A stretch of 64,000 nucleotides of DNA from Escherichia coli (lineage in GTDB: Bacteria; Pseudomonadota; Gammaproteobacteria; Enterobacterales; Enterobacteriaceae). Positions 60,900-64,000 of the stretch are shown here, one piece after another. The DNA lies in assembly GCF_003018115.1 (NCBI RefSeq), contig NZ_CP027457.1. The stretch is one strand, 5' to 3'. The notes beneath the pieces were generated by a model that did not search any database, had not been told where the DNA came from, and saw nothing but the letters and a program-made list of their open reading frames with translations. The stretch's first letter is position 1, and each line of letters begins with the position of its first letter. A program made the position numbers and the translations under genes.

Positions 60900-61202
60900 A
60901 TGAGCGATAAGCAGACTGAAAAGACCATTCAACTGGATACCCCCATCAAGCGCGGTAAAACAGAAATCACCGAAATTGTGCTGCGTAAACCGCAGTCCGG
61001 TGCGCTGCGCGGTACACGCCTGCAGGCCATTATGGATATGGATGTAAACGCGATGATGACCGTGATCCCCCGCATCTCCAGCCCGGCGCTGACTGCACAG
61101 GAAATTGCAGAGATGGACCCGGCAGATCTCACTGCCATGTCGGTTGAGGTTGTCACTTTTTTGTTGAAGAAGTCGGTGCTTGCCGGTTTACCGACAGCCT
61201 GA
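60900..61202 (+). CDS. Tail assembly chaperone gpE (with predicted -1 frameshift extension E' to ~61336)
   Basis: 100-aa ORF; TTTTTTG slippery heptamer at ~61157-61163; the -1 frame stays open to a stop overlapping the tape-measure start. Confidence 0.75.
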   Translation: MSDKQTEKTIQLDTPIKRGKTEITEIVLRKPQSGALRGTRLQAIMDMDVNAMMTVIPRISSPALTAQEIAEMDPADLTAMSVEVVTFLLKKSVLAGLPTA

Positions 61203-61328
61203 CGGTTGACGATCTGGTGGCAGATATCGCCACCATTTTTCACTGGCCGCCATCCGTTACTGACGTTATGCCGCTGACCGAAGTGCTGGAATGGCGGTAT
61301 AAAGCGATTCAGAGAAGCGGGGCCAACG

Positions 61329-64000
61329 ATGAGTGATAACAACCTGCGTCTGCAGGTCATTCTTAATGCGGTTGACAAGCTCACCCGCCCATTTCGATCT
61401 GCGCAGGCCAGTTCAAGAGAACTGGCTGCTGCTGTCAAAAAATCCCGCGATGCAATAAAGCAGCTTGATCAGGCCGGGAGCAGTCTGGACAGCTTCCGAA
61501 AGCTGCAGGCAGAAAATCAGAAATTAGGCGACAGGCTGAACTATGCCCGCCAGCGTGCAAATTTGCTCAGTCAGGAACTGGGAGCGATGGGGCCGCCTTC
61601 GCAACGTAAGGTTGTTGCTCTGGGCCGTCAACGGCTGGCTGTTCAGCGCCTGGAAGAACGCCAGAAAAAGCTGCAGCAGCAGACGGCGCTTGTGCGTGCT
61701 GAACTGTACCGGGCGGGAATTTCTGCGAAAGACGATGCGGGAGCAACTGCCCGTTTAGCCCGTGAAACATCACGTTATAACCAGGAACTTTCGAAACAGG
61801 AGGCGCGGCTGAAGCGACTGGGGGAAGCTCAGCGCAGGATGAATGCAGCGCGTGCCAGTTATGCCCGTTCGCTGGAGGTGCGTGATCGTATTGCAGGTGC
61901 CGGAGCCACCACCACGGCTGCAGGGCTGGCAATGGGTGCGCCAGTGATGGCGGCAGTAAAAAGCTATACCAGCATGGAAGATGCCATGAAAGGTGTGGCA
62001 AAGCAGGTCAATGGTCTGCGTGACGATAATGGCAACCGCACTGCACGTTTTTATGAAATGCAGGATGCCATCAAGGCTGCCAGCGAACAGTTGCCGATGG
62101 AAAACGGTGCGGTGGACTTCGCTGCACTGGTTGAAGGTGGTGCGCGCATGAACGTCGCAAATCCTGACGACAGCTGGGAAGATCAGAAACGTGACCTGCT
62201 GGCCTTCGCCAGTACGACAGCAAAGGCGGCAACAGCCTTTGAGCTGCCAGCGGATGAACTGTCAGAAAGTCTGGGGAAAATCGCCCAGCTCTACAAAATC
62301 CCCACCCGCAATATTGAACAGCTCGGTGATGCGCTGAACTATCTGGATGATAACGCCATGTCGAAAGGGGCAGACATCATTGATGTGATGCAACGTCTGG
62401 GCGGTGTGGCTGACCGTCTGGATTATCGTAAAGCGGCGGCGCTGGGTTCCACCTTCCTGACACTGGGCGCTGCGCCAGAGGTTGCAGCCAGTGCAGCAAA
62501 CGCGATGGTGCGTGAATTGTCCATTGCCACCATGCAAAGCAAGAGTTTCTTTGAAGGGATGAATCTGCTGAAACTCAATCCTGAAGTGATTGAAAAGCAG
62601 ATGACGAAGGATGCGATGGGAACCATCCAGCGCGTGCTGGAGAAGGTAAACGCGCTGCCGCAGGACAAGCGCCTGTCTGCCATGACTATGTTGTTTGGTA
62701 AAGAGTTTGGCGATGACGCGGCGAAACTGGCAAACAACCTGCCGGAACTGCAGCGTCAGTTAAAATTGACAGCGGGCAATGATGCGCTTGGCTCCATGCA
62801 GAAAGAATCCGACATTAACAAGGATTCACTTTCTGCGCAGTGGTTGCTGGTCAAAACCGGAGCGCAGAACACCTTCAGCAGCCTGGGCGAAACGCTGCGC
62901 CAGCCGCTGATGGATATTCTGTACACGGTGAAAAGCGTCACGGGGGCGTTGCGTCGCTGGGTGGAAGCTAACCCGGAACTGACAGGCACACTGATGAAAG
63001 CATCGGCTGTTGTGGCTGCGGTTACCGTCGGCCTCGGCACCTTAGCGGTGGCGCTGGCTGCAGTGCTGGGGCCGCTGGCAGTGATCCGTCTGGGATTCTC
63101 TGTGTTGGGTATCAAAACGTTATCTTCCGTTACGGCAGCAGTAACTCGAACCAGCAGCGCGTTGTCCTGGCTGGCTGGCGCACCACTGGCACTGCTGCGA
63201 CGCGGGCTTGCTTCATCGGGCAACGCCGCAGGTTTACTTACTGCGCCGTTGTCGTCTTTGCGCCGCACGGCATCACTGACGGGAAATGTCCTGAAAACTG
63301 TAGCAGGTGCGCCGGTTGCACTTTTGCGGTCTGGATTATCCGGTTTACGTGCGGTTGCTGTGATGTTTATGAATCCACTGGCAGCACTACGCGGCGGGCT
63401 GGCTGCCGCAGGCACGGTGCTGCGAGTACTGGCATCTGGTCCGCTGGCGATGCTGCGCGTTGCCCTGTATGCCGTATCTGGTCTGTTAGGTGCTCTGCTC
63501 AGTCCGATAGGTCTTGTGGTTACTGCACTGGCGGGTGTGGCACTGGTTGTCTGGAAATACTGGCAACCCATCACCGCATTTCTCGGTGGCGTGGTGGAAG
63601 GATTCAAAGCGGCGGCAGGTCCCATCAGTGCAGCGTTCGAACCGCTTAAGCCTGTGTTCCAGTGGATTGGTGACAAAGTGCAGGCGCTGTGGGGCTGGTT
63701 TACTGATCTGCTGACGCCCGTTAAGTCGACTTCTGCCGAACTGCAGAGCGCAGCGGCAATGGGGCGACGATTCGGGGAGGCACTGGCGGAAGGGCTGAAT
63801 ATGGTTATGCATCCGCTGGACTCCCTGAAATCTGGCGTTTCCTGGTTGCTGGATAAACTCGGCATTGTCAGTAAAGAGGCTGCAAAGGCGAAACTGCCGG
63901 AAAGCGTGACGCGTCAGCAACCTGCGACGGTGAATGCAGACGGTAAAGTGATGATGCCATCGGGTGGTTTTCCGTCATGGGGATATGGCTTTGCGGGGAT
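61329..64000 (+). CDS. Tail tape measure protein (gpT-like), 3' end beyond window
   Basis: Plus-strand frame from ATG at ~61329 (MSDNNLRLQVILNAVDKLTRPF...) appears open to the window end; coiled-coil N-terminus and Ala/Gly/Leu-rich repeats; absent from ORF track because it has no stop. Confidence 0.8.
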   Translation, partial: MSDNNLRLQVILNAVDKLTRPFRSAQASSRELAAAVKKSRDAIKQLDQAGSSLDSFRKLQAENQKLGDRLNYARQRANLLSQELGAMGPPSQRKVVALGRQRLAVQRLEERQKKLQQQTALVRAELYRAGISAKDDAGATARLARETSRYNQELSKQEARLKRLGEAQRRMNAARASYARSLEVRDRIAGAGATTTAAGLAMGAPVMAAVKSYTSMEDAMKGVAKQVNGLRDDNGNRTARFYEMQDAIKAASEQLPMENGAVDFAALVEGGARMNVANPDDSWEDQKRDLLAFASTTAKAATAFELPADELSESLGKIAQLYKIPTRNIEQLGDALNYLDDNAMSKGADIIDVMQRLGGVADRLDYRKAAALGSTFLTLGAAPEVAASAANAMVRELSIATMQSKSFFEGMNLLKLNPEVIEKQMTKDAMGTIQRVLEKVNALPQDKRLSAMTMLFGKEFGDDAAKLANNLPELQRQLKLTAGNDALGSMQKESDINKDSLSAQWLLVKTGAQNTFSSLGETLRQPLMDILYTVKSVTGALRRWVEANPELTGTLMKASAVVAAVTVGLGTLAVALAAVLGPLAVIRLGFSVLGIKTLSSVTAAVTRTSSALSWLAGAPLALLRRGLASSGNAAGLLTAPLSSLRRTASLTGNVLKTVAGAPVALLRSGLSGLRAVAVMFMNPLAALRGGLAAAGTVLRVLASGPLAMLRVALYAVSGLLGALLSPIGLVVTALAGVALVVWKYWQPITAFLGGVVEGFKAAAGPISAAFEPLKPVFQWIGDKVQALWGWFTDLLTPVKSTSAELQSAAAMGRRFGEALAEGLNMVMHPLDSLKSGVSWLLDKLGIVSKEAAKAKLPESVTRQQPATVNADGKVMMPSGGFPSWGYGFAG

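What the first reader, a model, noticed from the sequence alone, without database searches (positions are those of the whole stretch)
61150..61340. Programmed -1 frameshift site for E/E' tail chaperone
A TTTTTTG slippery heptamer lies near the end of gene E and the -1 frame remains open up to the tape-measure start, the conserved arrangement of P2 E/E' and analogous to lambda G/GT. This supports that the tail module is intact.
Basis: partly seen in the sequence, partly recalled or inferred. Interest (0 to 1): 0.3.

Follow-up and report, generated by a model that had tools for sequence, protein, structure and literature searches.

The report
P2-type E/E' tail-chaperone frameshift site
This is the well-known ribosome "slip" site that lets a P2/Fels-2-type prophage of E. 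coli make two tail-assembly helper proteins from one gene start; it is real and intact but ordinary.

Summary
Gene E (60900..61202, +) carries TTTTTTG at 61157..61163, phased (ac)T TTT TTG. The -1 frame is open from 61148 to a TGA at 61334-61336. That stop overlaps the tape-measure (T) ATG at 61329 by 8 nt.

The predicted 145-aa trans-frame product carries both Pfam domains of P2 E+E': PF10109 (1.9e-18) and PF06528 (2.6e-18). It aligns to P2 E+E' at 49% identity with no gap across the junction.

In 97 related loci E' lies in the -1 frame in 96. A phased X_XXY_YYZ heptamer sits in the E/E' overlap in all 97, and it is TTTTTTG in 88. Among 11 lineages spanning 34-100% protein identity, the heptamer is the only run of invariant nucleotides.

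The same DNA (99.7% identical) is in about 1000 complete E. coli genomes, and the Fels-2 and P2 GenBank records describe the slippage. It is therefore already known.

No convincing stimulatory RNA structure was found (z about -1.5, one compensatory pair).

Tail-fibre gene H has a 1-nt insertion at 56617-56620. The alternative fibre end in the invertible segment is also frame-broken. T, U and D run off the window.

The parts
60889..60892 (+). AGGA, a Shine-Dalgarno-like motif 7 nt upstream of the E start codon
   Evidence: Read directly from the sequence. Its function is inferred.
60900..61202 (+). Gene E, the zero-frame product: a 100-aa tail assembly chaperone (P2 gpE homologue)
   Evidence: ORF. 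PF10109 Phage_TAC_7 at E=1e-18 covering profile positions 1-78 of 79. phrog_103 at 2e-42.
61145..61147 (+). TGA in the -1 frame. It sets the upstream limit of the stretch where a -1 shift can give a long product.
   Evidence: Translation of the -1 frame and the script.
61157..61163 (+). Slippery heptamer T TTT TTG (zero-frame codons Phe87 and Leu88 of E), the proposed site of the -1 shift
   Evidence: Same heptamer at the homologous column in P2, where the record marks the frameshift site. It forms seven consecutive invariant columns in an 11-lineage DNA alignment. It is TTTTTTG in 88 of 97 related loci, and the rest are other X_XXY_YYZ heptamers.
61163..61336 (+). E' segment in the -1 frame: 57 sense codons plus TGA. 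It is read only after the shift. The composite E+E' spans 60900..61163 and 61163..61336 and is 145 aa.
   Evidence: Open frame. PF06528 Phage_P2_GpE at 2.6e-18 on residues 107-143. phrog_1756 covers residues 84-145, across the junction. 49% identity to P2 E+E' with no gap.
61217..61336 (+). The GTG-started 39-aa ORF that annotation pipelines call a separate 'GpE family phage tail protein'. Here it is interpreted as part of E', not an independent gene.
   Evidence: ORF list. PGAP annotation of the 99.7%-identical E. coli locus. -1 frame conservation extends 19 codons upstream of this GTG.
61329..64000 (+). Tape-measure gene T. Its ATG overlaps the end of E' by 8 nt. The gene is cut by the window end.
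   Evidence: Open for 890 codons. PF10145 at 2e-18. The homologue in E. coli 504211 is 1025 aa.
60330..60845 (+). Tail tube gene FII, the upstream neighbour that defines the conserved position of the cassette
   Evidence: PF04985 at 8.8e-60.
61172..61203 (+). Candidate downstream hairpin starting 8 nt after the heptamer. It is weak and is not accepted as a stimulator.
   Evidence: MFE -13.5 kcal/mol with z=-1.5. One compensatory pair (UA to CG) in the Klebsiella lineage, but several disrupting changes elsewhere. The equivalent P2 region has z=+0.39.

Best explanation
This is the programmed -1 ribosomal frameshift cassette of a Fels-2/P2-type (Peduoviridae) prophage of E. coli.

Proposed mechanism:
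1. Most ribosomes translate E from 60900 to the TGA at 61200 and make the 100-aa chaperone gpE.
2. A minority pause with tRNA-Phe on UUU (61158-60) and tRNA-Leu on UUG (61161-63).
3. Those ribosomes slip one base 5' onto UUU UUU (61157-62).
4. They continue with GUU (61163-65) in the -1 frame to the TGA at 61334-36.
5. The result is a 145-aa gpE+E' that shares its first 88 residues with gpE. Residue 88 is Leu under tandem slippage, or Phe if only the P-site tRNA slips.
6. By analogy with lambda G/GT, both proteins bind the tape-measure protein T. The E' extension recruits the tube protein. The fixed E:E+E' ratio is set by the slip frequency. Neither protein ends up in the virion.
7. The T start codon (61329) overlaps the end of E', which permits translational coupling.

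What is shown here: the sequence anatomy, the homology and the conservation.
What is inferred from P2 and lambda work: that slippage actually occurs, its efficiency, and the chaperone function.
For: Anatomy and homology:
- Heptamer phasing and the open -1 frame.
- E carries PF10109 and the -1 extension carries PF06528, both well above the gathering cut-offs.
- 49% identity to P2 E+E' over 139 aa with no gap across the junction.
- phrog_1756 spans the junction, residues 84-145.

Conservation:
- E' is in the -1 frame in 96 of 97 related loci, and a phased X_XXY_YYZ heptamer lies in the overlap in all 97.
- The window and 14 divergent relatives (Peduoviridae plus the Vibrio Vhmlvirus phage MAR) from Escherichia, Salmonella, Klebsiella, Erwinia, Burkholderia, Ralstonia, Pseudomonas, Vibrio, Stenotrophomonas, Mannheimia and Citrobacter all keep the -1 arrangement.
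- In those relatives the zero-frame tails vary from 7 to 24 aa and are poorly conserved, whereas the -1 frame is conserved from the heptamer onward.
- The heptamer is the only block of invariant nucleotides in alignment A2.

Existing records and literature:
- The P2 record carries a join CDS and a 'site of -1 translational frameshift' feature.
- The Fels-2 record notes gpE+E' slippage.
- PMC3091744 states that P2 shifts at TTTTTTG to give a 91-aa E and a 142-aa E+E'.
- The lambda G/GT mechanism is summarised in PMC5009743.
Against: - There is no experimental evidence for this particular sequence.
- No significant stimulatory RNA structure was found.
- A GTG at 61217 could in principle start an independent 39-aa E', which is how PGAP annotates it.
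- A U6 run could also support low-level transcriptional slippage, which sequence alone cannot distinguish from ribosomal slippage.
Confidence: 0.93

Rival explanations
1. E' is an independent small gene. It is translated from its own GTG at 61217 as a 39-aa 'GpE family' protein, and no recoding occurs.
For: - PGAP and several phage records annotate two separate CDSs.
- The Pfam PF06528 model (37 positions) matches only residues 107-143, roughly the GTG-started ORF.
- A start-type codon sits at codon offset 20 from the heptamer in many relatives.
Against: - The -1 frame is conserved as protein for 19 codons upstream of that GTG: FVEEVGACRFTDSLTVDDL against P2 FVAELGAVTFPKNLSVDDL. phrog_1756 covers residues 84-145.
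- The codon at offset 20 encodes a conserved M/V within 'L(M/V)AD'.
- Two relatives have no start codon in the -1 frame at all.
- No Shine-Dalgarno motif precedes 61217.
- An independently initiated gene would not need to stay in the -1 frame overlapping E in 96 of 97 loci, nor keep a phased slippery heptamer.
Confidence: 0.03
2. The long product arises by transcriptional slippage. RNA polymerase adds one extra U on the T6 run, so standard translation of the edited mRNA gives E+E'.
For: - The site is a homopolymer run (T6 here, T7 in the Klebsiella lineage, T8 in one IMG/VR contig).
- An inserted U gives the same reading frame as a -1 ribosomal shift.
Against: - Relatives use heptamers that are not homopolymers but are classic tandem-slippage sites: GGGAAAG, AAATTTT and CCCTTTC. 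This argues that tRNA re-pairing is what is conserved.
- The phase of the heptamer relative to the E frame is conserved. That matters for ribosomes and not for RNA polymerase.
- From general knowledge of bacterial transcriptional slippage, runs of 6 are short for efficient slippage.
- The P2 record calls the event translational.
Confidence: 0.04
3. It is a chance heptamer in a decaying prophage. The cassette is a relic with no current function.
For: - TTTTTTG is not over-represented in the window.
- The same prophage has a frameshifted tail-fibre gene H and a broken alternative fibre end, so it may be defective as a whole.
Against: - E, E', FI, FII and the visible 890 codons of T are full-length with complete domain coverage.
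- The E/E' region is 99.7% identical to that of phage 500465-1 and of many E. coli prophages.
- Expected chance occurrence of the heptamer in the permissive stretch is about 0.0035.
Confidence: 0.01

Closest known systems
Bacteriophage P2 E / E+E' (FETUD operon; Christie et al. 2002, cited in PMC3091744 and in the P2 record NC_001895)
   Same: - Same Pfam domains (PF10109 and PF06528).
- Same gene position between FII and T.
- Same TTTTTTG heptamer in the same phase and at the same alignment column.
- Same -1 direction.
- E' ends overlapping the T start (ATGAGT...).
- 49% identity over 139 aa.
   Different: - gpE is 100 aa here against 91 aa in P2.
- The zero-frame tail after the heptamer is 12 aa here against 6 aa in P2 (counted after the Leu of TTG), and the two tails are unrelated in sequence.
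- E+E' is 145 aa here against 142 aa in P2.
Salmonella phage Fels-2 STM2699 / STM2697.1 (Felsduovirus), E. coli phage 500465-1 and Klebsiella phage KP12
   Same: - This is the same lineage.
- DNA identity is 86.6% to Fels-2 and 99.6-99.7% to KP12 and 500465-1.
- The heptamer and the downstream 40 nt are identical.
- The Fels-2 record notes that gpE+E' forms by translational slippage.
   Different: Only point substitutions. The records annotate E and E' as two CDSs rather than as a join.
Phage lambda G / GT tail assembly chaperones
   Same: [quoted passage not shown] The ratio is set by slip frequency (about 30:1 in lambda, PMC5009743).
   Different: - No detectable sequence relationship. The Pfam scan at E<=0.01 returned only PF10109 and PF06528.
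- Lambda is a siphovirus and uses G GGA AAG.
- Lambda T is a larger domain.
E. coli dnaX -1 frameshift (A AAA AAG with an upstream SD-like element and a downstream hairpin)
   Same: - A -1 tandem slippage on an X_XXY_YYZ heptamer in E. coli.
- An SD-like GAGGT lies 6 nt upstream (61146-61150).
- A possible hairpin starts 8 nt downstream.
   Different: - The stimulators are not supported here: hairpin z=-1.5 with weak covariation.
- The SD-like motif also encodes the conserved E/K-V residues and is absent in KS14 and ENT90.
- In dnaX the shift truncates the protein rather than extending it (general knowledge).

Membership tests
P2 gpE / gpE+E' frameshifted tail-chaperone pair | The zero-frame product belongs to the gpE chaperone family (PF10109 Phage_TAC_7). 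| tested here: met
   E=1e-18, 67.5 bits against a cut-off of 25, covering profile positions 1-78 of 79.
P2 gpE / gpE+E' frameshifted tail-chaperone pair | The -1 frame extension belongs to PF06528 (Phage_P2_GpE). | tested here: met
   E=2.6e-18, 65.6 bits against a cut-off of 23, covering profile positions 1-37 of 37 on residues 107-143 of the fused product.
P2 gpE / gpE+E' frameshifted tail-chaperone pair | The pair lies between the tail tube gene (FII) and the tape-measure gene (T). | tested here: met
   FII at 60330..60845 (PF04985, 8.8e-60). T from 61329 (PF10145, 2e-18)..
P2 gpE / gpE+E' frameshifted tail-chaperone pair | E' is in the -1 frame relative to E and overlaps its 3' end. | tested here: met
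   The overlap is 61148..61199. The -1 relation holds in 96 of 97 related loci, including 14 divergent phage lineages.
P2 gpE / gpE+E' frameshifted tail-chaperone pair | A phased X_XXY_YYZ slippery heptamer (TTTTTTG in P2) lies within the overlap. | tested here: met
   T TTT TTG at 61157..61163, the only phased heptamer in the overlap. It sits at the same column as in P2.
P2 gpE / gpE+E' frameshifted tail-chaperone pair | The trans-frame product aligns continuously with P2 E+E' across the junction. | tested here: met
   49% identity over 139 aa, 0 gaps, E=1e-51.
P2 gpE / gpE+E' frameshifted tail-chaperone pair | Both E and E+E' are actually produced, and both are required for tail assembly. 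| not testable with these tools
   This needs protein analysis or genetics. It is known for P2 only from the literature (PMC3091744; P2 record).
Lambda gpG/gpGT family (sequence membership) | Sequence homology to lambda gpG/gpT Pfam families. | tested here: not met
   The Pfam scan of E and E+E' at E<=0.01 returned only PF10109 and PF06528. The relationship is functional analogy, not membership.
Stimulated -1 PRF of the dnaX type | A stable, conserved RNA structure 5-9 nt downstream of the heptamer. | tested here: inconclusive
   Hairpin 61172..61203 at -13.5 kcal/mol, z=-1.5, with 15 of 200 shuffles folding as well. One compensatory pair but several disruptions. P2 gives z=+0.39.

The most novel reading that the evidence does not exclude
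In the Fels-2 lineage, unlike P2, frameshift efficiency might be tuned by local cis elements. One is the hairpin GUCGGU...ACCGAC (61172-61195), or its extended form reaching 61203, which starts 8 nt after the heptamer. It shows one UA to CG compensatory change in the Klebsiella lineage. The other is the SD-like GAGGU 6 nt upstream. If real, this would be a lineage-specific stimulator of a tail-chaperone frameshift that is otherwise regarded as stimulator-free.
Probability: 0.12. Interest if true: 0.25.

Novelty: already known. Interest (0 to 1): 0.08.

Why it matters
- It confirms that the region is a P2/Fels-2-type contractile-tail module and that the chaperone cassette is unmutated.
- For annotation, E' should be written as a ribosomal-slippage join (60900..61163, 61163..61336) rather than as a separate 39-aa gene.
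- It adds nothing new to biology. The same sequence is in roughly a fifth of complete E. coli genomes, and the mechanism was established for P2 in 2002.
- It cannot by itself be used to call the prophage tail functional, because the tail-fibre gene in the same window is frameshifted.

Tried and rejected
1. Motif over-representation: TTTTTTG is not enriched in the window (28 against 20.9 expected). The count alone was rejected as evidence.
2. Downstream stimulatory structure: folding 47, 70 and 114 nt gave z of -1.3 to -1.7, and P2 gave +0.39. Counting two candidate helices on 11 distinct sequences found one compensatory pair and several disruptions. I did not accept it as a stimulator.
3. Upstream SD-like GAGGT: it is semi-conserved, but it is confounded with the conserved E/K-V codons and is absent in KS14 and ENT90. 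It is left as speculation.
4. NCBIfam gave no hit for the fused protein, and no solved-structure homologue was found at E<=1.
5. The primary P2 paper (Christie et al. 2002) is not held in the library. I relied on its summary in PMC3091744 and on the P2 GenBank features.
6. The search for related loci returned mostly close relatives. I therefore fetched 14 divergent phage loci individually to obtain independent lineages.
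Full report
**Observation.**
- ORF 60900..61202 (+) encodes a 100-aa protein ending ...VEVVTFLLKKSVLAGLPTA*.
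- The sequence TTTTTTG lies at 61157..61163. In the E frame it reads ACT TTT TTG, so it has the X_XXY_YYZ phasing needed for tandem -1 slippage.
- The -1 frame has a TGA at 61145-61147. It is then open for 62 codons, to TGA 61334-61336.
- The next gene starts at ATG 61329, so it overlaps the end of the -1 frame by 8 nt. It is open for 890 codons to the window end.

**Is it more than chance?**
- The heptamer alone is not special: 28 copies on both strands against 20.9 +/- 4.5 in shuffles.
- Only about 16 in-phase positions exist in the 52-nt stretch (61148..61199) where a -1 shift would give a long product.
- At the window's own density, a copy there is expected about 0.0035 times (my arithmetic).
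- It is the only phased slippery heptamer in that stretch.

**Identity of the genes.**
- Pfam assigns E to PF10109 (tail assembly chaperone E/41/14, 1e-18).
- The -1 extension is assigned to PF06528 (Phage P2 GpE, 2.6e-18).
- The upstream genes are the tail sheath FI (59148..60320) and the tail tube FII (60330..60845, 8.8e-60).
- The downstream gene is a tape-measure protein (PF10145).
- The predicted 145-aa trans-frame product aligns with P2 E+E' at 49% identity over 139 residues, with no gap across the junction.
- PHROG 1756 matches residues 84-145, so it spans the shift site.
- The P2 record carries a joined E+E' CDS and a 'site of -1 translational frameshift' feature at the same TTTTTTG.
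- The Fels-2 record says its two ORFs form gpE+E' by slippage.
- PMC3091744 summarises the P2 result: TTTTTTG, a 91-aa E and a 142-aa E+E'.

**Conservation.**
- The 700 nt around the site is 99.7% identical to E. coli phage 500465-1, 99.6% to Klebsiella phage KP12 and 86.6% to Fels-2.
- It occurs in 998 of 5426 complete E. coli genomes.
- tblastn of the fused protein finds 424 phage records. Nearly all those listed match as two pieces in different frames.
- I analysed 97 loci: the window, 80 IMG/VR contigs and 16 loci from annotated phage and E. coli genome records (14 of them divergent phage lineages).
  - E' is in the -1 frame relative to E in 96.
  - A phased X_XXY_YYZ heptamer lies in the overlap in all 97.
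  - It is TTTTTTG in 88. The others are TTTTTTA, TTTTTTC, TTTTTTT, GGGAAAG, AAATTTT or CCCTTTC.
- The window and 14 divergent relatives (33-54% E identity; hosts from Escherichia to Burkholderia, Vibrio and Mannheimia) all keep the arrangement.
- In those relatives the zero-frame tail after the heptamer varies from 7 to 24 residues and is not conserved. The -1 frame is conserved from the heptamer onward.
- In an 11-lineage DNA alignment with 54% mean column identity, the seven heptamer columns are the only invariant run.

**Mechanism.**
- The best-supported reading is classical tandem -1 ribosomal slippage. This is inferred from the anatomy and from P2 and lambda work.
- tRNA-Phe on UUU and tRNA-Leu on UUG re-pair one base 5' on UUU UUU, and decoding resumes at GUU (61163).
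- The products are gpE (100 aa) and gpE+E' (145 aa). Residue 88 is Leu or Phe depending on whether both tRNAs or only the P-site tRNA slips.
- By analogy with lambda G/GT (PMC5009743), both proteins coat the tape-measure protein and E' recruits the tube protein. The slip frequency fixes their ratio.
- The efficiency and the actual production of the long protein cannot be determined from sequence.

**Stimulatory elements.**
- A hairpin can form 8 nt downstream (61172..61203, -13.5 kcal/mol). Its z-score is only -1.5, and the P2 equivalent scores +0.39.
- On 11 distinct sequences, one pair shows a UA to CG compensatory change in the Klebsiella lineage. Other substitutions break pairs, and the shuffling controls are unimpressive.
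- An SD-like GAGGT lies 6 nt upstream, but it also encodes conserved residues and is absent in some relatives.
- PMC3091744 likewise reports no structures in P2-like phages.
- I do not accept either element as a stimulator.

**Rivals.**
- *Independent initiation of E' at GTG 61217, as PGAP annotates it.* This is contradicted by protein-level conservation for 19 codons upstream of that GTG and by the lack of an SD motif. Two relatives have no start codon in the -1 frame at all. The -1 relationship and the phased heptamer are universally retained.
- *Transcriptional slippage on the T run.* Sequence alone cannot exclude it. It is disfavoured because relatives use non-homopolymeric tandem-slippage heptamers and because the phase is conserved.

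**The corollary that the tail module is intact.**
- FI, FII, E/E', V, W, J and I have good domain coverage.
- T is cut by the window end. The homologue in a relative is 1025 aa. U and D are not visible.
- Tail-fibre gene H (from 55413) stops at 56690, while its C-terminal gp53-like domain continues in another frame (56581..56835).
- Alignment with phage pro483 shows a single extra A (A4 against A3) at 56617-56620.
- The nearest complete E. coli genomes match the 601-nt query over 600 nt and annotate an intact gene.
- H lies partly in a 1.9-kb invertible segment, flanked by 27-nt inverted repeats (56449-56475 and 58357-58383). A Hin-type invertase lies next to it at 58394..59005.
- The alternative fibre C-terminus on the minus strand is also split between frames near 58170-58176.
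- The tail fibre therefore appears defective in both orientations, unless these are sequencing errors. The frameshift cassette cannot be taken as evidence of an intact tail.

**Context.** The flanking DNA is E. coli chromosome (the ypjA region, 100% identical to several strains). In a relative the other end of this prophage type abuts ssrA.

**Verdict.** The feature is already known and ordinary, and interest is low.

Noticed in passing
window 56617-56620 (within H, 55413..56835): Tail-fibre gene H has an extra A (AAAA against AAA in phage pro483 and the nearest E. coli genomes). The ORF therefore stops at 56690, and the gp53-like C-terminal domain (PF21882) continues in another frame (56581..56835). 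This is either a private inactivating mutation or a homopolymer sequencing error.
   Followed up: yes
window 56449-56475 and 58357-58383; invertase 58394..59005: 27-nt inverted repeats (81% complementary) flank a 1.9-kb invertible tail-fibre segment. The segment holds two opposed tail-fibre-assembly genes (56847..57299 + and 57271..57873 -). A Hin/Gin-type serine invertase lies next to it. This is a host-range switch like Mu G or P1 C.
   Followed up: partly
window 57873..58411 (- strand): The alternative fibre C-terminus is split. The Collar-domain part (58148..58411) and the distal part (57873..58088, frame open to about 58175) are in different frames. The distal part is only 33-36% identical to the pro483 and p13P477T-2 alleles. 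It looks like a frame break at a recombination junction near 58170-58176.
   Followed up: partly
L005 (IMGVR_UViG_2734481921_000002), about 1440-1450 of the locus: One Klebsiella-lineage relative has T8G where its sister (phage ST437-OXA245phi4.1) has T7G. This places E and E' in the same frame, the only locus of 97 without a -1 relationship. It is either a homopolymer assembly error or a naturally fused variant that would make only E+E'.
   Followed up: partly
window 61217..61336; L003 6418..6537: PGAP and many phage records annotate E' as a free-standing 39-aa 'GpE family phage tail protein' starting at an internal GTG or ATG, rather than as a ribosomal-slippage join. This is a systematic annotation artefact across about 1000 E. 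coli genomes.
   Followed up: yes
L091 (Mannheimia phage vB_MhM_587AP1), L094 (Citrobacter Shae_phiSM), L090 (Klebsiella ST16-OXA48phi5.4): Distant family members replace TTTTTTG by other phased heptamers (GGGAAAG, AAATTTT, CCCTTTC) at the equivalent place. The site has been re-invented or has drifted while keeping slipperiness.
   Followed up: partly
window 26000-32700: The chromosomal flank is the E. coli ypjA (adhesin-like autotransporter) region, 100% identical to O169:H41 and related strains. The prophage integrase (32793..33839, -) marks the left end of the prophage.
   Followed up: partly
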